Positions 10,773 to 32,057 of a stretch of 36,601 nucleotides of DNA are shown in pieces (position 1 is the stretch's first letter; the number at the start of each line of letters is the position of its first letter). Where the stretch lies: the IMG/VR virus record IMGVR_UViG_3300037104_000497, positions 1-36,601 of that record; one strand, 5' to 3'. A program made the translations under genes and the position numbers. This stretch comes from a virus. The notes below the pieces were generated by a model. It saw only the letters and a list, made by a program, of their open reading frames with translations, was not told the DNA's origin and searched no databases.

Positions 10773-13160
10773 ATGAAGCAATTACGCCCCTATCAACAGG
10801 AAGTGTTAGACAAGCTAAAGATAAGGCTAAAAGAAACCGATCATCCACTATTGGTAAACGCCAGTGTGGGCTCAGGCAAATCGCTTATCATTGCCGAATT
10901 GTTGCGCCACGTAGAACGCGGCGGTTATCGCGCTCTGTGTCTGACAATGAATAGCACTCTGATTCGCCAGAATGCTGATACCTATACAAAACAAGGCGGT
11001 CACGCAGGTATATATTGCGCAACACTTAATATGAGAGATACACGCCAACCCATTATTTTTGCATCGCCTCTCTCTGTTAGAGGAAGCATAAAAAAAGGCC
11101 ATACACTTTCAAAAATACCTTTTAACCTCATTATCGTTGATGAATGCCACAACATTAACTTTAATGAGAAAGGCACAACGTACATGCGCATATTTAACCA
11201 TTATAATTCATTAGGTCAAAAAATTAGATTCGTTGGTTTAACGGGTACGCCCTATCGTGGAAAAGGTCATACCATTGTAGGTGACAACCTTTTCTTTAAA
11301 GAGGAAGTGTGTGCGATTACTGCCGATTGGTTAATTGAAAATACGTATCTCACACCGCCCAAATGGGGCTATTGTGAAAAAACACTGCAATATGATTTTC
11401 ACGAATTGAAAGTTAATGCCATGGGTAAGTTTAATTCTGTTCAACTAGATGAAGCGATACACAAAAAGCCTCGCCTTACTGGTAAAATTATGGCTGAGGT
11501 CACAGAGATAGTTAAAAATCGTAAAGGCGCATTTATCTTTGCATCCAGCGTTAAACATTGTCAGGAATGTGCGGAATGGTTGCCACCGGATGAAACTGCA
11601 ATCATTACGGGTGAAACACCGGACAATATGCGCGAGCTTTATATTACAAAAGCGCGTGCCGGTATCATCAAATACTTGGTCAATGTCAATGTGTTGAGTA
11701 CAGGCGTAGACGTGCCTACCTTCGACACCATCGTCTTTGTACGCCCCACAGAATCGCTTGTATTATATATGCAGTGCTTAGGTCGAGGCTTACGCCTTGC
11801 AGATGGTAAAACGGATTGTTTGATTTTAGACTATGCAGGAAATCTGGATAGACACGGAGACATTGATAATCCAGTGATTAATAAAGCCATACAACCAAAT
11901 GACCCTAATGATCCAGATTATTGCATTGAATGCTTTACTTGTAATTCTATGAACACGCTTATGTCACGGCGCTGTATCGGTTTCAAAGAGGATAAACGTT
12001 GCGATCATTGGTTTGAATGGCGAGATTGTCCGGGTTGTGGATCAAAAAACGATATTGTGTCACGTCAATGCCGATCTTGTCATACTGAGTTAATTGATCC
12101 TAATAGTAAATTAAGTCATTTTGCATCCATTAAAGATAAAATGCTTTTATACGTAAAAGAAACACAATATGCACTATCTATTGTAAACGGTTTTCCACGT
12201 TTTGATATTCGTTATTTAATCGATAAAACTAACAACCCTACATCTTACAAAATAGTACAAGAAAACTTTTTATTAAGCAGTGATAAAGCAGTTAGATTTT
12301 TTTATCATACGGTTGTACAATCCCATTTTATACATGCGCATCAAGCCTACTCTCGTTTACAAAATATTACATACTTGAAAAGCATTATTGAAAATGGCGA
12401 GTTATATTCACCGAGGGCAATACAGTGTGTAGAAATGGATAATAATCGTTTAAAAGTAATTGAAAAATATTTTGATCACCCAATAATAGAAACTGATTTA
12501 CGGCAATTAGACGTACTCTATACATTCTATGATTTTGATCAACTAAAAAATACAGTCACGTTTGAATATTTAGTACGTGAAAATGAAATATTCAGTTTAA
12601 TTAGAGATAGTTACCGATTAAAAACACCAACGTCCTATAAACGTTTTTCAAAAAATTATGGGTCAGTAGTTGCCAGTCATGTTGAAAGAATAATAGATAT
12701 TAAACATCTAATAGAAACTCCTAGCAAAATATGGGTTGATATAAATAATAGGATGCAACGTTTTGTTAAAGATGCCCCAACTATTAAGGATGAACAGAGA
12801 TATAATTTTTTATGTCAAAGAATAAATTTAAATACTATATTTGAAAAATGGTGTGAGATTATTAAAATTCAAATATTTAATAATTATATTTCTTATGATA
12901 GACAAGATAAATTTTTTAAAGTATTTAGAGTTAGAATATATGCATATTATAAATTTATTAGTGTTAAAGGAAATGAATTAGAAGGGTTAGTAAATATTTT
13001 ATGTGATTTAACTGAAAGCGACCTCGATAAAATCCAATCAAAAGAATATCGCTATTTACAAGTTATAGCCGATGGCCTACATGGTGAAGATGTAGAGCAA
13101 TGGAAAACGGCAGAGGATAAGATATTTCTGAAACAGAATTGCTATAATTGGCGAGAATAA
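10773..13160 (+). CDS. SF2 DEAD/DEAH-type helicase with an internal zinc-ribbon cluster and an unassigned C-terminal region of about 350 aa
   Basis: Motif I NASVGSGKS, motif II IIVDECHN, motif III LTGTPYR, motif VI QCLGRGLR. Then CIECFTCNS...RCDHWF...CPGCGS...CRSCHT. ATG at 10773 is preferred over GTG at 10770. Confidence 0.85.
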   Translation: MKQLRPYQQEVLDKLKIRLKETDHPLLVNASVGSGKSLIIAELLRHVERGGYRALCLTMNSTLIRQNADTYTKQGGHAGIYCATLNMRDTRQPIIFASPLSVRGSIKKGHTLSKIPFNLIIVDECHNINFNEKGTTYMRIFNHYNSLGQKIRFVGLTGTPYRGKGHTIVGDNLFFKEEVCAITADWLIENTYLTPPKWGYCEKTLQYDFHELKVNAMGKFNSVQLDEAIHKKPRLTGKIMAEVTEIVKNRKGAFIFASSVKHCQECAEWLPPDETAIITGETPDNMRELYITKARAGIIKYLVNVNVLSTGVDVPTFDTIVFVRPTESLVLYMQCLGRGLRLADGKTDCLILDYAGNLDRHGDIDNPVINKAIQPNDPNDPDYCIECFTCNSMNTLMSRRCIGFKEDKRCDHWFEWRDCPGCGSKNDIVSRQCRSCHTELIDPNSKLSHFASIKDKMLLYVKETQYALSIVNGFPRFDIRYLIDKTNNPTSYKIVQENFLLSSDKAVRFFYHTVVQSHFIHAHQAYSRLQNITYLKSIIENGELYSPRAIQCVEMDNNRLKVIEKYFDHPIIETDLRQLDVLYTFYDFDQLKNTVTFEYLVRENEIFSLIRDSYRLKTPTSYKRFSKNYGSVVASHVERIIDIKHLIETPSKIWVDINNRMQRFVKDAPTIKDEQRYNFLCQRINLNTIFEKWCEIIKIQIFNNYISYDRQDKFFKVFRVRIYAYYKFISVKGNELEGLVNILCDLTESDLDKIQSKEYRYLQVIADGLHGEDVEQWKTAEDKIFLKQNCYNWRE

Positions 13161-13173
13161 CTATAATAATATT

Positions 13174-13231
13174 AGGCTTCGGCGTGTGTCTTGCGCATAT
13201 GATATCCACGGATGCCCCCTCGAAGCCTTTT
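13174..13231 (+). terminator. Possible terminator of the rightward operon (8-bp stem, large structured loop, short T run)
   Basis: AGGCTTCG (13174-13181) pairs with CGAAGCCT (13221-13228), followed by TTTCC. It sits in the convergent intergenic region. Confidence 0.4.
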
Positions 13232-13298
13232 CCAAAGCGAAAGCAGAGGACGGCAAACCTGTCTGCGTGACAGTGAGGCTATGAGATTCTAGGGGGTT

Positions 13299-13541
13299 TC
13301 AAAATCCCCCTGATTCGCCAGTTATAACCCACTCATGATTTTCATCCGGTATAAAACACATCGATGTAGACACCTTATCTCTCCAACGAATGCTATGTGA
13401 GACAAGCCAGCCTCCGAGTGTTTTAGCTCTAGCTGTAGCAAATGAGATAACTCCATTTTCGTGATGAAAAATATCTTCCCATGCTAATTGATTATTTGTC
13501 TTTTCTGTTTCAATTTCTAAACCGTCTATATTAACTTTCAC
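13299..13541 (-). CDS. Hypothetical protein (80 aa)
   Basis: ORF track. The stop is embedded in the hairpin AGGGGG/CCCCCT (13291-13311). Confidence 0.5.
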   Translation of the reverse strand: MKVNIDGLEIETEKTNNQLAWEDIFHHENGVISFATARAKTLGGWLVSHSIRWRDKVSTSMCFIPDENHEWVITGESGGF

Positions 13542-13945
13542 TTAGGAGCCTCCGGTAAATAATTCCAATGTGTTACATATTTTGTAAGATCAACTTCATC
13601 TAGTTCGCCATTATAAAAACATTTATTAATATACATAGCTAATTCAGCTCTATCGTCACACCAAACCAACACATTGCTTTTATCAATAGGTAACTTTTCA
13701 TTCACATCAAACCACTCTTTCTTCAAAGACAAACATTGATTTACTGCAATCTCAATAGTATTAAGCACTATATTAAAGCTTTTAATTTGATCTTCAAATA
13801 TTGATAATACGAATGGTACAGAACAAGTATAAGATTCCATTTCTTTTCCGTCCTTAATATCTTCAAATGTGCTGCATTCTAAATCAATTCTTAAACATGA
13901 TTGATTCTGATTTTTATCATAGATGTAATTTATTTTTATTTTCAT
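13538..13945 (-). CDS. DUF551-type phage protein (135 aa)
   Basis: The C-terminus WFDVNEKLPIDKSNVLVWCDD...VTHWNYLPEAPK matches the DUF551 signature (W..LP...VLV....THW..LPe.P) from memory. Confidence 0.6.
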   Translation of the reverse strand: MKIKINYIYDKNQNQSCLRIDLECSTFEDIKDGKEMESYTCSVPFVLSIFEDQIKSFNIVLNTIEIAVNQCLSLKKEWFDVNEKLPIDKSNVLVWCDDRAELAMYINKCFYNGELDEVDLTKYVTHWNYLPEAPK

Positions 13946-14018
13946 TTTTTTATTCTCTAAATAGGTGGCCTATTTTCAGTTATTAGCTAATAGCTGGACG
14001 TCTCAACTTATCGTCGGC

Positions 14019-14094
14019 CATTAAAAGCGGCTGATCTTCTCAAATACTTCCAATAGATAATTCTCACGTCATTCTAATTTTGAGAAGATTAGCC
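14019..14094 (-). terminator. Second tandem hairpin/terminator T2 (16-bp stem, 34-nt loop, tail GCTTTTAATGG)
   Basis: 14029-14044 (ggctgatcttctcaaa) pairs with 14079-14094 (tttgagaagattagcc). The only non-Watson-Crick pair is g14033/t14090. The minus-sense tail is GCTTTTAATGGCC. Confidence 0.45.
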
Positions 14095-14131
14095 ATAAAA
14101 AGCGGCCTATTATACTAAATGGCACGCCGCT
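14095..14131 (-). terminator. Intrinsic terminator T1 downstream of tRNA-Gln
   Basis: Minus sense reads AGCGGC(GTGCCATTTAGTATAATAGGC)GCCGCT followed by TTTTATGG. The stem is 14101-14106/14126-14131. Confidence 0.55.
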
Positions 14132-14187
14132 AGGACGGACAAATGCTTATTGGGAAACCCCACATTTAATATCGTCGGCCATAAACG

Positions 14188-14258
14188 TTTAGAGAGATGG
14201 ACTCGAACCACCATTAGCTCCGTCAAAGGGAGCTGTCCGACCATTAGACGATCTCTAA
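14188..14258 (-). tRNA. tRNA-Gln (anticodon UUG), 71 nt, CCA not encoded
   Basis: Hand-folded minus strand: TTAGAGA TC GTCT AATGGTC GGAC A GCTCC CTTTGAC GGAGC TAAT GGTGG TTCGAGT CCATC TCTCTAA A. It has a 7-bp acceptor stem, a TTCGAGT T-loop, and anticodon loop C-T-TTG-A-C. Confidence 0.85.
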
Positions 14259-14847
14259 ATAAACAGGCGCAGCAGTCATTGTTGGTCTATTAGGCTCCAA
14301 CTACCATATTGGGCGCGTTGTGACGAGCTACCATACGAGGACGCGCACTCCGCCTCTTAGGTCAATGCTCTGTTACTGCATAAACAGGCGGCAATCATAA
14401 GCAGTAGGGTATTTATTCCCATCTTTTAACTAACGCTGCTATTGGCTAGCACTTAGATTACCATAAAAGAGGTATCGTGGTTAGCCAAGGCGATCTTCAT
14501 CTAAGAAGTAGCTGTACTAAAAAGATTGCTCCACGATACTTCATACACTGGCGGGATGTTCCAGTCTTTCACTGGAAAGCCAAGTAGGTGAATCGGCAGC
14601 TTTCACGAGAACTACGGTGTTTTTTTAACACTTCTCGCACCTAAGAAAGCTATGCAGCAAATTCTGCACCTCCATCCCATAAACATCATTTAAGCGGGCG
14701 ACTAGATACTCTTTGGGGAGTCATCCCATGCCCTTTCTAATCGACCTAGCCGCTTTTGTTAGACACCGTTGACGCCACGGTACGGCTATGGTTTGCGGAT
14801 TTCTGCCAGTGACTAAACTGGCTCACGCCCTCTTAAATGATACTTCG
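14259..14847 (-). ncRNA. Candidate large structured non-coding RNA (about 590 nt) co-transcribed with tRNA-Gln. Class unknown and strand not fully resolved.
   Basis: There is no ORF of 60 aa or more in any frame, and no SD-preceded ATG on the minus sense. G+C is elevated. Many nested complementary segments are present (coordinates in findings). A promoter-like element lies at 14882-14854 and terminators follow the tRNA. Confidence 0.4.
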
Positions 14848-14853
14848 AGGGTA

Positions 14854-14882
14854 ATAATAATATATCTATATACATATATCAA
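14854..14882 (-). promoter_or_regulatory. Sigma70-like promoter TTGATA-17 nt-TATTAT directly after parG, pointing into the ORF-free segment
   Basis: Minus sense has TTGATA (14882-14877), the spacer TATGTATATAGATATAT (17 nt), and TATTAT (14859-14854). It lies in AT-rich repeats, so a chance match is possible. Confidence 0.4.
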
Positions 14883-14897
14883 TATATATTTATATAT

Positions 14898-15104
14898 CTA
14901 TTTATCTAAATATTTATTCAAAGCTTTAATCAAAATATCCCGTAAATTACGTTCATCTTCAACCATTTTACGTTTTACCTTTTTATAAAGCATAGAGGGA
15001 ATATTAAACAAATACGGTTTTGTATCTGTATTATCTATGCGTTGAGTGAGTCGTTTATGATTTTCTTTCAAATCAAAATCAGCACCAGATTCAATTTTTG
15101 CCAT
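14898..15104 (-). CDS. parG: ParG-like ribbon-helix-helix centromere-binding protein (68 aa)
   Basis: Small ORF overlapping the parA stop by 14 nt. The C-terminal YLFNIPSMLYKKVKRKMVEDERNLRDILIKALNKYL fits a beta-strand plus two-helix RHH pattern behind a flexible N-terminus. Confidence 0.6.
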   Translation of the reverse strand: MAKIESGADFDLKENHKRLTQRIDNTDTKPYLFNIPSMLYKKVKRKMVEDERNLRDILIKALNKYLDK

Positions 15105-31967: not shown

Positions 31968-32057
31968 ATATCATCAAGTCTAGCCCGACGGGGCGAATAG
32001 TAATCTCATCAGTTACGTGACTTGACTATTATTATGATGACCTTGATGGGGGAATAA

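What the first reader, a model, noticed from the sequence alone, without database searches (positions are those of the whole stretch)
14259..14897. About 590-nt ORF-free, GC-enriched, helix-dense segment between parG and tRNA-Gln: candidate large structured phage RNA
No frame has an ORF of 60 aa or more between the parG stop (14898) and the 5' end of tRNA-Gln (14258). On the minus sense I found only ATGs without a Shine-Dalgarno, each stopped within 15-25 codons. The segment is visibly GC-richer than this AT-rich genome; my hand count of 14261-14360 gives about 54 G+C per 100.

Complementary segments I verified pair by pair:
- 14469-14480/14531-14542 (12 bp), enclosing 14490-14497/14522-14529 (8 bp)
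- a three-tier hairpin: 14598-14604/14645-14651, 14606-14611/14632-14637, 14617-14621/14627-14631
- 14559-14565/14571-14577 (7 bp)
- 14747-14752/14783-14788, enclosing 14765-14769/14777-14781
- 14805-14810/14817-14822
- 14653-14657/14664-14668
- 14272-14281/14363-14379 (5+5 bp with a 7-nt bulge), enclosing 14313-14318/14341-14346

GAAAGC/GCTTTC occurs three times (14575, 14599, 14645). This allows mutually exclusive pairings or a pseudoknot with 14585-14590/14638-14643.

A TTGATA-17-TATTAT promoter-like element (minus strand, 14882-14854) sits right after parG, and two terminators follow the tRNA. Together they predict a minus-strand transcript of about 750 nt (leader RNA plus tRNA).

Large ornate RNAs found in phages (ROOL, GOLLD) are known to sit beside tRNA genes, so that class is the obvious comparison. 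I cannot match a consensus by eye, and this may be a new class.

Caveat on orientation: three long helices each carry one G-T pair (g14471/t14540, g14492/t14527, g14033/t14090). These are wobbles only in plus-sense RNA, so the strand is unresolved.
Basis: partly seen in the sequence, partly recalled or inferred. Interest (0 to 1): 0.85.

Follow-up and report, generated by a model that had tools for sequence, protein, structure and literature searches.

The report
Array of small tRNA-like phage RNAs
The gene-free stretch is not one giant RNA. It is a promoter-driven chain of at least five separate small folded RNAs joined head-to-tail to a tRNA gene; three of them (here called X, A and C) are conserved families absent from the RNA-family database (Rfam), and most carry tRNA-style ends, so this soil phage appears to make a set of tRNA-like RNAs whose purpose is unknown.

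Summary

Relatives show a mosaic of independent modules, not one ~590-nt RNA. On the minus (parG-sense) strand the order is: promoter, X (157 nt, four-way junction), A (130 nt, pseudoknotted cloverleaf-like), B1 hairpin, B2, C, tRNA-Gln, then D-type modules, then orf135.
- X and A occur together, alone or not at all in related phages.
- B1/B2/C are replaced by an ORF in some relatives.
- X, A and C each show compensatory base changes. G-U pairs fix X and A on the minus strand.
- No module matches any Rfam family.

A, B2, C and D close with a 4-7-bp acceptor-like stem followed by RCC(A/U). The modules and the real tRNA are preceded by the same (G/U)UUUAU spacer.

My best inference, not shown, is that host tRNA-processing enzymes (RNase E/P) cut the chain into small stable tRNA-like RNAs. 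The closest analogues are the T4 stable RNAs RNAC and RNAD, the phage M3 and C4 RNAs, and plant mitochondrial t-elements. B1 and B2 have no homologues, and B1's strand is unresolved.

The parts
14854..14882 (-). Sigma-70-like promoter TTGATA-17-TATTAT that drives the array
   Evidence: Best site on the array's strand, 10 of 12 matches. An equivalent -35/-10 pair sits at a fixed distance from the first module in relatives: 12 nt (11 in L038) before the X/X2 helix in the window, L042, L037, L029 and L038, and 6 nt before G1 of A in L009, L012, L025 and L028 (sequences).
14685..14841 (-). Module X: 157-nt four-way-junction RNA closed by a 16-bp helix. It is absent from several relatives.
   Evidence: Inverted repeat I5. 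MFE z -4.7. Homologues in L042, L038 and L043. 46 pairs, 98.9% paired, 11 pairs with compensatory changes, against 35-44% paired when partners are slid. Covariance model R2 scores the window copy at 196 bits.
14549..14678 (-). Module A: 130-nt cloverleaf-like RNA. P1 GGGAUG/CAUCCC is followed by GCCA. It has two hairpins, a T-arm-like hairpin abutting P1, and a pseudoknot UAGGUG:CACCUA.
   Evidence: Nine homologues. 98.2% paired, 20 pairs with compensatory changes, 0 of 500 shuffles as good, 33-49% paired when slid. Pseudoknot supported by L037 (UAGGGA:UCCCUA). About 30 G-U cells against 3 A-C cells on this strand. MFE z -4.8.
14469..14542 (.). Module B1: long hairpin with a 12-bp outer and an 8-bp inner helix, followed on the minus strand by UUUUAU. 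Strand unresolved.
   Evidence: Helices verified. Both helices carry a G-T that is a wobble only in plus sense. z -5.3 on plus against -1.9 on minus. No homologue in any fetched locus or in IMG/VR.
14386..14462 (-). Module B2: 77-nt element with a 7-bp acceptor-like stem GGUAAUC/GAUUGCC followed by GCCU
   Evidence: Read from the sequence. Picked up by the generic 'leader + 7-bp stem + RCC' search. Its stem resembles the GGCAAUC stems of E-type modules in L039, L009 and L075. No homologue found. MFE not better than shuffles.
14265..14379 (-). Module C: 115-nt RNA with acceptor-like stem GCAGUA/UGCUGC + GCCU, a 5-bp stem abutting it, and a covarying hairpin
   Evidence: Homologues in L100, L095, L053 and L040. 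29 pairs, 93% paired, 8 with compensatory changes, 28-51% paired when slid. L100 has a perfect 7-bp stem followed by ACCA.
14187..14258 (-). tRNA-Gln (UUG), preceded by the same GUUUAU spacer as the modules
   Evidence: ARAGORN. Rfam tRNA, 56.3 bits.
14101..14180 (-). Module D1: degenerate D-type element (GGCC GACGAUAU ... AAUAGGCC GCU). Outside the flagged coordinates but part of the same chain.
   Evidence: Motif search. 90% identical to L009 6646-6750 and to L040.
14029..14094 (.). D2a: 16-bp hairpin followed on the minus strand by GCUUUUAAU
   Evidence: Inverted repeat I4, 94% complementary. The one G-T is a wobble only on plus. z -6.0 on plus and -3.0 on minus for the enclosing 145 nt.
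13963..14019 (-). Module D2b: canonical D-type element (GGCC GACGAUAA ... AAAAUAGGCC ACCU), directly upstream of the orf135 start at 13945
   Evidence: The D family has 44 distinct copies in soil-phage contigs with the same architecture.

Best explanation
Window 13946-14897 is the non-coding front part of a minus-strand operon. A promoter just after the parG-like gene drives a head-to-tail chain of independently folding RNA modules: X, A, B1, B2, C, tRNA-Gln, D1, D2a, D2b. The chain then runs into orf135 (DUF551) and orf80. The flagged 14259-14897 holds the first five modules.

Shown:
- The modules are separable units that related phages carry in different combinations.
- X, A and C, plus the widespread D type, are conserved structured RNAs with compensatory base changes.
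- X and A are read on the minus strand.
- None of them matches an Rfam family.
- A, B2, C and D close on a 4-7-bp helix that starts with G and is followed by R-CC-(A/U).
- In A and C a hairpin abuts the 3' strand of that helix, like a tRNA acceptor/T-arm stack (13 bp in A, 12 bp in C).
- The modules and the genuine tRNA are separated by the same short (G/U)UUUAU spacer.

Inferred:
- The primary transcript is cut up by the host's tRNA-maturation machinery: RNase E in the AU-rich spacers, RNase P at the U|G junction using the 3' RCCA, then 3' trimming.
- This releases a set of small stable tRNA-like RNAs together with tRNA-Gln, and leaves defined ends on the downstream mRNA.

What the released RNAs do is unknown. 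X has no CCA tail and sits at the very 5' end of the transcript, so it may act differently, for example as a 5'-end-protecting or polymerase-modifying leader.
For: Modularity:
- blastn and synteny across 30 or more related loci, with sequences.

Structure and covariation:
- A.
- X.
- C.
- D: 44 distinct copies; P1 is closed in the MFE fold of 41 of them; P2 has a variable sequence that stays paired.

Strand:
- Many G-U and almost no A-C pairs on the parG-sense strand.
- Three D copies have GGCU paired to GGCC.

tRNA-like ends:
- A tails are R-CC-A/U in 9 of 9 copies.
- D tails are ACCA in 17, GCCA in 3 and ACCU in 3 of about 33 copies.
- L037 has two modules with perfect 7-bp stems followed by ACCA. 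L100 C has GGAGCAA/UUGCUCC followed by ACCA.
- The stack of P1 plus the abutting hairpin is 6+7 bp in A and 7+6 bp in the divergent L037 copy.

Spacer:
- [GT]TTTAT[GT] occurs 6 times on the minus strand in 952 nt against 0.69 expected (P about 8e-5). Each copy lies at a module boundary, including the one before tRNA-Gln.

Association with tRNAs:
- tRNAs lie within such arrays in L039, L042, L073, L075 and L095, and in the same locus as the modules in L050 and L091.

Precedent:
- RNase P processes the phage M3 RNA, the P1/P7 C4 RNA, 4.5S RNA and tmRNA (PMC11143913).
- An RCCA motif directs RNase P RNA cleavage (PMC12710915 abstract).
- RNase P measures the acceptor/T stack (PMC4919913 abstract).
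Against: - No transcript, 5'/3' end or cleavage data exist. Processing rests entirely on sequence features.
- D-type closing stems are only 4-5 bp, which is short for an RNase P substrate.
- Many tails are CCU rather than CCA.
- The tRNA-Gln itself does not encode CCA.
- X has no tail.
- B1 and D2a fold better as plus-strand RNA.
- In A-first relatives, A is followed within 15-20 nt by a Shine-Dalgarno sequence and ATG. That also fits a purely cis-acting 5' UTR.
- The spacer could be a recombination linker rather than a cleavage site.
- The alignments are small: 4-9 sequences. A7 was fitted to the model, although the pseudoknot was not part of the model.
Confidence: 0.6

Rival explanations
1. 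The modules are purely cis-acting leader or intercistronic elements that are never released as free RNAs. X, at the 5' end, would act like a put-type polymerase-modifying antiterminator or a 5'-end stabiliser. A, C and D would punctuate and stabilise the downstream mRNAs in the way plant-mitochondrial t-elements do.
For: - X and its sister class X2 always start 11-12 nt after the -10 hexamer.
- In L043, X lies in an early-operon leader upstream of exonuclease and RecT genes, the position of nut/put sites.
- A or X is followed directly by a Shine-Dalgarno sequence and ATG in L009, L012, L025, L038 and L029.
- D often sits between a stop codon and the next Shine-Dalgarno sequence.
- Hairpins followed by U-runs (B1, D2a) lie downstream and would need read-through.
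- t-elements are documented mRNA-end-forming tRNA-like structures (PMC1920247).
Against: - The modules are independent of the identity of the downstream gene.
- They are chained to each other and to tRNAs rather than spread through the genome. Only this one array exists in the 36.6-kb window.
- Elaborate conserved cores, such as A's pseudoknot and X's invariant P3, exceed what a stabiliser would need.
- This reading is not exclusive of the best explanation.
Confidence: 0.25
2. One large (~590-nt) ornate RNA of the ROOL/GOLLD type, or a new class of that size.
For: The region is ORF-free, GC-enriched and structured, and lies next to a tRNA. Whole-region MFE z is -3.2 to -3.8. ROOL and GOLLD are phage-associated large RNAs (PMC12286853, PMC5737381).
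Against: - No Rfam hit, even at E<=10.
- Only sub-segments are conserved, and they occur in different combinations and orders in relatives.
- X is an insertion. 14192-14549, which holds B1, B2, C and the tRNA-Gln, is swapped for an ORF.
- Each module has its own closing helix.
- No long-range pairing between modules is conserved.
Confidence: 0.03
3. DNA-level elements: cassette-junction or recombination sites, miniature inverted-repeat mobile elements, or the replication or partition site of a plasmid-like prophage lying between parAG and the helicase.
For: - Modules are shuffled between genomes exactly at the short conserved spacers.
- X is bounded by 16-nt inverted repeats and is a clean insertion.
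- L043 carries a duplicated X 5' arm.
- D has conserved ends and a hypervariable middle.
- The locus is adjacent to partition genes.
Against: - Inverted repeats covary rather than being conserved. X helix 1 has 6 of 16 pairs with compensatory changes.
- G-U pairs are tolerated on one strand only.
- Internal helices and a pseudoknot covary.
- No target-site duplication is seen at the X borders.
- A promoter is positioned at a fixed distance from the first module.
Confidence: 0.07
4. Decayed genes: remnants of protein-coding ORFs or of degenerate tRNA genes with no present function.
For: - In relatives the B/C position holds an 84-91-aa ORF.
- B2 and C do not fold better than shuffles.
- Some E-type modules contain T-arm-like motifs, and ARAGORN calls one an 81-nt 'tRNA-Gln'.
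Against: - tblastn of the relatives' ORFs against the region finds nothing significant (best E = 0.013, 20 bits, outside B/C).
- The tRNA covariance model detects only the real tRNA, even at E<=10.
- C is conserved at 70-91% identity across L053, L095 and L100 with compensatory changes. That indicates selection on structure.
Confidence: 0.05

Closest known systems
Phage T4 stable RNAs RNAC and RNAD (species 1 and 2), encoded in the T4 tRNA gene cluster
   Same: Small, stable, non-tRNA RNAs of a phage, made with the phage tRNAs; that they are encoded beside the T4 tRNA genes and matured with them is from my own knowledge of the T4 literature. Their function is still unknown (PMC9697503).
   Different: - No sequence similarity to any deposited phage at blastn sensitivity.
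- Here there are many module types, shuffled between genomes.
- The tails are explicit RCCA-like sequences, and the spacer is conserved.
Non-tRNA RNase P substrates of phages: phi80 M3 RNA and the P1/P7 C4 antisense RNA
   Same: A short helix with a 3' RCCA-type end is recognised as a tRNA mimic and cut out of a longer precursor (PMC11143913).
   Different: - The Rfam search of the window reported no match to any family, the C4 family included.
- Cleavage has not been shown for the window's modules.
- C4 is a single regulatory antisense RNA, not an array.
Plant mitochondrial t-elements and the tRNA-punctuation model
   Same: tRNA-like structures between genes are used by tRNA-processing enzymes to create mRNA ends (PMC1920247). 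D-type modules often lie between a stop codon and the next Shine-Dalgarno sequence.
   Different: - Different domain of life, and no homology.
- The phage modules cluster in one array per genome instead of flanking many genes.
ROOL and GOLLD large ornate RNAs
   Same: Phage or prophage-associated, adjacent to tRNAs, function unknown.
   Different: - Those are single 500-800-nt RNAs with their own Rfam models.
- This region has no hit to them.
- It is a chain of 57-157-nt units that occur separately.
HK022 put RNAs (promoter-proximal antiterminator RNAs)
   Same: Applies to module X and X2 only. These are structured RNAs beginning a few nucleotides after the transcription start of a multi-gene phage operon.
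   Different: - put RNAs are two-stem-loop elements of about 70 nt, whereas X is a 157-nt four-way junction.
- No sequence relation was tested, and antitermination was not tested. This comparison rests on my own knowledge.

Membership tests
ROOL / GOLLD / any Rfam large RNA (HEARO, OLE, raiA, tmRNA, group I/II introns) | Significant match to the family covariance model | tested here: not met
   cmscan of the whole window at gathering thresholds, and of 13100-15000 at E<=10 on both strands. Only tRNA-Gln matched, plus three chance-level hits outside the region.
ROOL / GOLLD-type large RNA | One contiguous conserved unit of about 500 nt or more | tested here: not met
   Relatives conserve only the 130-nt A or the 157-nt X, separately or together. 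The rest is replaced.
tRNA (RF00005) | Cloverleaf recognised by the tRNA model or ARAGORN | tested here: not met
   Met only for 14187-14258. Modules X, A, B1, B2 and C gave no tRNA-clan hit at E<=10.
RNase P substrate class (tRNA-like) | Helix starting at G+1 with a pyrimidine at -1 | tested here: met
   A: U or C at -1 and G at +1 in 9 of 9 copies. C, B2, D: (G/U)UUUAU|G. The D scan pattern itself imposed UUAU, so that set is biased. D copies found independently also show U or C at -1.
RNase P substrate class (tRNA-like) | 3' R73-C74-C75-(A76) directly after the closing helix | tested here: met
   A: RCC then A (3 copies) or U (6). D: ACCA 17, GCCA 3, ACCU 3. C: ACCA, GCCA, GCCU. L037 modules: ACCA twice. 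X, B1 and D2a lack it.
RNase P substrate class (tRNA-like) | Coaxial acceptor/T-arm stack of about 12 bp | tested here: inconclusive
   A: 6+7 bp, and 7+6 bp in L037. C: 7+5 bp. E-type: 8+4 bp with a near-canonical T-loop UGCAAUU. D has only 4-5 bp before a 7x7 internal loop.
RNase P substrate class (tRNA-like) | Actual cleavage by RNase P | not testable with these tools
   Needs an in-vitro or in-vivo assay.
T4 RNAC/RNAD-type phage stable RNAs | Sequence homology to T4 rnaC or rnaD | tested here: not met
   blastn (word 11) of 13946-14897 against 50,697 phage records matched only a cyanophage tRNA-Gln.
T4 RNAC/RNAD-type phage stable RNAs | Encoded in the same transcription unit as phage tRNAs | tested here: inconclusive
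   Same strand, no canonical terminator between them, and a shared spacer. Co-transcription itself is not shown.
P1/P7 C4 antisense RNA (Rfam C4 family) | Match to the C4 model | tested here: not met
   The Rfam search reported no match to any family apart from tRNA and chance-level hits.
Miniature inverted-repeat transposable element (for X) | Conserved terminal inverted repeats with target-site duplication | tested here: not met
   The terminal helix covaries, with 6 of 16 pairs compensatory. No duplication is seen at the insertion borders when compared with L009 and L012.

The most novel reading that the evidence does not exclude
These soil phages carry a previously undescribed system. It is a recombining, promoter-proximal 'cassette array' of diverse tRNA-mimicking RNAs: the families X, A, C, D and E and others.
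- The families share tRNA-style ends and processing spacers but have unrelated cores.
- They are released by the host tRNA-maturation machinery.
- They act in trans, for example as decoys or sponges for tRNA-targeting host defences or tRNA-binding enzymes, or as carriers of a new activity.
Probability: 0.3. Interest if true: 0.85.

Novelty: new variant of a known kind. Interest (0 to 1): 0.65.

Why it matters
- Phage small RNAs made alongside tRNAs, such as T4 RNAC and RNAD, have been known for fifty years without a function. This locus offers several new structured families with comparative support: X, A and C, plus the widespread D type.
- The families are arranged as interchangeable modules with tRNA-like ends. 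That points to a general phage strategy of feeding non-tRNA RNAs through the host tRNA-processing pathway.
- The locus gives concrete, testable substrates for RNase P, RNase E and the CCA-adding enzyme.
- It also gives candidates for tRNA mimicry in the phage-host arms race, where several defence systems cut tRNAs.
- For annotation, it shows that 'ORF-free GC-rich gaps' next to phage tRNAs can be arrays of small RNAs rather than one large RNA.

Tried and rejected
1. Rfam at gathering and at E<=10: no family.
2. blastn against deposited phages and plasmids: only a tRNA-Gln match.
3. Exact-protein look-ups returned three other assemblies with a 100% identical region, so they gave no variation.
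4. The genome-contig scan for A's pseudoknot pattern gave three hits. None produced a blastn match to the region when the fetched loci were searched again, so I treated them as spurious. The 19-mer scan added one chance hit in a coding region (L014).
5. A second X pattern found only L043 again. A B1 pattern found nothing. B1 and B2 therefore stay without homologues.
6. The decayed-ORF idea was tested with tblastn of the relatives' ORFs against the region. Nothing was significant.
7. Models R1 and R2 on 38 loci carrying D or C found no A or X. A and X are therefore much rarer than D.
8. A strict generic detector (7 of 7 pairs, then RCC, with leader) found 9 hits in 48 kb of array regions (both strands) against 0 in 71 kb of control. 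It misses A and D because their stems are shorter, so I give it little weight.
9. I considered hammerhead, pistol, kink-turn and sarcin-ricin readings of the conserved D internal loop (GACGAUA/GAAAAUA) by eye. None fits its consensus, and Rfam ribozyme models did not hit.
10. A MITE or attC reading of X and D was rejected because the stems covary.
11. Literature searches found no description of such arrays.
Full report
**1. The observation**

- Inside 14259-14897 no frame is open for more than 45 codons (ORF list).
- G+C is 0.438, or 0.466 without the AT-rich promoter.
- For comparison, the whole window is 0.392 and the 200-nt windows flanking the region on either side are 0.27-0.30.
- Every helix listed is complementary, with G-T pairs where stated.
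- The 602-nt core folds better than dinucleotide shuffles on both strands: z = -3.2 on minus and -3.8 on plus.
- tRNA-Gln(UUG) lies at 14187-14258 on the minus strand.
- The TTGATA-17-TATTAT element at 14882-14854 is the best promoter-like site on the minus strand of the neighbourhood; a plus-strand site at 13139-13167 scores the same 10/12.

Two details were not confirmed.
- The scan finds no canonical terminator after the tRNA.
- The 68-aa 'parG' hits no protein family, although it follows a clear ParA.

The window is a phage with a P22-like portal.

**2. Not a known RNA, and not in the reference collections**

Rfam 15 gives nothing but the tRNA, at gathering thresholds and at E<=10, on both strands. 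blastn against 50,697 phage records and 72,556 plasmids matches only a tRNA-Gln. Three other public assemblies hold a 100% identical copy, so they carry no information.

**3. Relatives show a mosaic, not one RNA**

Using ParA and the parG-like protein I fetched about 30 related loci from IMG/VR and from soil and rhizosphere metagenomes. Synteny is conserved on both sides: orf326...orf139-parA-parG on one side and a convergent helicase on the other. The space between parG and the helicase is variable.

Architectures on the parG strand are:

| Locus | Order after parG |
|---|---|
| window | X-A-B1-B2-C-tRNAGln-D-... |
| L042 | X-A-tRNAGln-D |
| L038 | X-ORF |
| L009, L012, L025 | A-ORF(84-91 aa)-D... 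|
| L039 | A-D-E-tRNAGln |
| L028 | ORF-promoter-A-D |
| L037 | X2-A'-F-ORF |

Details of what is shared:
- Window 14550-14689 (module A) recurs directly after the promoter in L009, L012, L001, L025, L028 and L039, and after X in L042.
- Window 14685-14841 (module X) recurs in L042 and L038. It also recurs in an unrelated phage context in L043, an early operon upstream of exonuclease and RecT genes with no parG.
- X is a clean 160-nt insertion relative to L009, L012 and L025.
- 14192-14549, which holds B1, B2, C and the tRNA-Gln, is replaced by an ORF in those phages.

A single ~590-nt RNA is therefore excluded.

**4. The modules are real structured RNAs on the minus strand**

*Module A (14678-14549).*
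- Eight close sequences plus a divergent one found by the covariance model R1 (L037; 55 bits, E about 1e-12).
- The divergent copy has 20 base pairs with changes on both sides. Overall 98.2% of cells are paired, against 33-49% when partners are slid, and 0 of 500 shuffles do as well.
- The eight close sequences alone give 7 such pairs.
- The fold is:
  - P1 (GGGAUG/CAUCCC)
  - a 6-bp hairpin
  - a long arm
  - a 7-bp hairpin that abuts the 3' strand of P1
- The pseudoknot was not in the model, yet L037 changes it to UAGGGA:UCCCUA, giving two compensatory pairs.

*Module X (14841-14685).*
- Four sequences, 46 pairs, 98.9% paired, 11 compensatory pairs.
- Six of those lie in the 16-bp terminal helix, so that helix is a base-paired stem rather than a transposon-type inverted repeat.

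*Module C (14379-14265).*
- Does not fold better than shuffles, but has homologues in L100, L095, L053 and L040.
- 8 compensatory pairs out of 29.

*Strand.* G-U pairs are frequent on the parG-sense strand, and A-C, the mark of the opposite strand, is almost absent. X and A are therefore minus-strand RNAs.

*B1 and B2.*
- B1 (14542-14469) and B2 (14462-14386) have no homologue in anything I could reach.
- B1 carries two G-T pairs that are wobbles only in plus sense (z = -5.3 on plus, -1.9 on minus). Its strand stays open.
- No remnant of the relatives' ORFs is detectable in the region.

**5. Shared ends**

Reading the minus strand, the chain is:

promoter | X | GUUUAU | A...CAUCCC-G-CCA | GUGUAU | B1 | UUUUAU | B2 (GGUAAUC...GAUUGCC-G-CCU) | GUUUAU | C (GCAGUA...UGCUGC-G-CCU) | GUUUAU | tRNA-Gln | ACGUUUAU | D1 | UUUUAU | D2a | UUUAAU | D2b (...GGCC-A-CCU) | orf135

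*Spacer.* The motif [GT]TTTAT[GT] occurs six times on this strand in 952 nt, against 0.69 expected from the rest of the window. Every copy is at a module boundary, including the one in front of the true tRNA.

*Closing helix and tail.* A, B2, C and D close on a helix that begins with G and is followed by R-CC-(A/U).
- A: 9 of 9 copies.
- L037: two modules have perfect 7-bp stems followed by ACCA.
- L100: C has GGAGCAA/UUGCUCC followed by ACCA.

*Acceptor/T-like stack.*
- In A, the hairpin abutting P1 gives a continuous 6+7-bp stack, and 7+6 bp in L037.
- In C, the stack is 7+5 bp.
- In E-type modules it is 8+4 bp, with a T-loop-like UGCAAUU.

*Promoter spacing.* In A-first phages the first G of A lies 6 nt after the -10 hexamer, which makes it the expected transcription start. 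The X and X2 helices start 11-12 nt after the -10 hexamer in five phages.

**6. The D type is widespread**

- An exact 16-mer scan of IMG/VR returned 47 stretches.
- With the parG loci there are 44 distinct D elements.
- The architecture is (U)UUAU|GGCC-GACGAUAC-[25-110 nt, variable]-GGGAAAAUA-GGCC-R-CCA.
- It folds as P1, then a conserved 7x7 internal loop, then a P2 whose sequence varies but stays paired.
- P1 variants are GCCC/GGGC, GGGC/GCCC and GGCU-GGCC.
- D elements are chained to each other, to E- and C-type modules and to tRNAs, or sit between a stop codon and the next Shine-Dalgarno sequence.
- Models for A and X find nothing in those 38 loci, so A and X are rare.

**7. Mechanism**

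*Shown:* a promoter-proximal tandem array of separable, conserved, strand-specific RNA structures with tRNA-style termini, co-linear with a tRNA.

*Inferred:*
- The array is transcribed as one precursor and cut up by the host tRNA-maturation enzymes.
- The AU-rich spacers fit RNase E sites (own knowledge of the RN|WUU preference).
- The pyrimidine(-1)|G(+1) junction with a 3' RCCA, and the ~12-13-bp stack, fit RNase P recognition (PMC4919913 and PMC12710915 abstracts).
- RNase P is known to process the phage M3 and C4 RNAs, 4.5S RNA and tmRNA (PMC11143913).
- The products would be stable tRNA-like small RNAs, plus a trimmed mRNA for orf135 and orf80.

I put about 0.9 on 'modular array of small minus-strand RNAs' and about 0.5-0.6 on the processing step.

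The main rival is that the modules act only in cis (confidence 0.25): X as a put-like or 5'-protective leader, and the others as t-element-like punctuation. This overlaps with the best explanation rather than excluding it.

**8. Comparison and novelty**

The nearest known things are:
- T4 RNAC and RNAD, stable RNAs encoded in the T4 tRNA cluster (own knowledge) and still of unknown function (PMC9697503);
- the phage M3 and C4 RNase P substrates;
- plant mitochondrial t-elements (PMC1920247).

None is homologous, and the Rfam searches returned no family for any module. No paper I could find describes such arrays.

I rate the finding a new variant of a known kind, namely phage small RNAs processed with tRNAs. 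It comprises several apparently undescribed RNA families and an unusual modular, shuffled organisation.

**9. Caveats**

- Alignments hold only 4-9 sequences for X, A and C.
- Alignment A7 was fitted to the model.
- E-values from the shortened calibration are rough.
- The D scan imposed its own 5' motif.
- No expression data exist.
- The host is unknown. The nearest cultured phages are Vibrio phages at 45% helicase identity.

Noticed in passing
window 13161-13298: A second GC-rich (0.45-0.50) non-coding stretch lies between the helicase stop and the orf80 stop. It is conserved in L009 (79%), L037 5679-5767 (80%) and L002, and in L007 it sits next to a tRNA-Tyr. It does not fold better than shuffles (z about 0). 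Its function is unknown.
   Followed up: partly
window 14854-14918: AT-rich short direct and palindromic repeats (ATATATCTATATA...) span the parG stop and the promoter (families D1 and I1). In more distant relatives (L042, L039, L037) the -35 hexamer is instead flanked by an inverted repeat ATCATGATAT/ATATCATGAT. This is a candidate operator or centromere-like site for the ParA/parG-like pair.
   Followed up: no
window 31973-32040 (+): Rfam int-alpA RNA hit just above threshold (36.5 against 35.8 bits). It lies between a capsid-like gene and an Endonuclease VII gene.
   Followed up: no
L048-L092 and parG loci (e.g. L012 6676-6737, L060, L071 4776-5270): The D element is a widespread family of 44 distinct copies in IMG/VR soil-phage contigs and the parG-locus metagenome contigs. 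It has P1 GGCC/GGCC, a conserved 7x7 internal loop (GACGAUA/GAAAAUA), a variable covarying P2 and an RCCA tail. The two copies in the window got no Rfam hit. I could not assign the internal loop to a known 3D motif.
   Followed up: partly
L043 3048-3470: In an unrelated phage, the first ~20 nt of X (UUCACUUUAAGAGGGCGUGAG) are duplicated about 240 nt upstream of the complete X, with a 65-aa ORF between them. It looks as if a gene was inserted by recombination at X's 5' arm.
   Followed up: partly
L029 1544-1694 and L037 4264-4405: A sister class 'X2' has the same terminal helix sequence as X (AUCAYUUGAGAGGG.../...CYCAARUGAU), the same position 12 nt after the -10 hexamer and a similar size, but a different core. 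A hairpin covaries between the two copies.
   Followed up: partly
L075 5401-5481 (-) and L039 1186-1337, L009 6740-6940: E-type modules share an 8-bp GGCAAUCG/CGAUUGCC stem plus ACCA and a 4-bp hairpin with a T-loop-like UGCAAUU. One relative with the same acceptor stem is called an 81-nt 'tRNA-Gln' by ARAGORN. This suggests a continuum from true tRNAs to tRNA-derived modules.
   Followed up: no
L009 6394-6648, L012 6392-6667, L025 1844-2098, L038 459-722: The ORF that replaces B/C in relatives is a small coiled-coil protein with a C-terminal membrane helix. It has a weak XhlA (haemolysin/holin-like) match.
   Followed up: no
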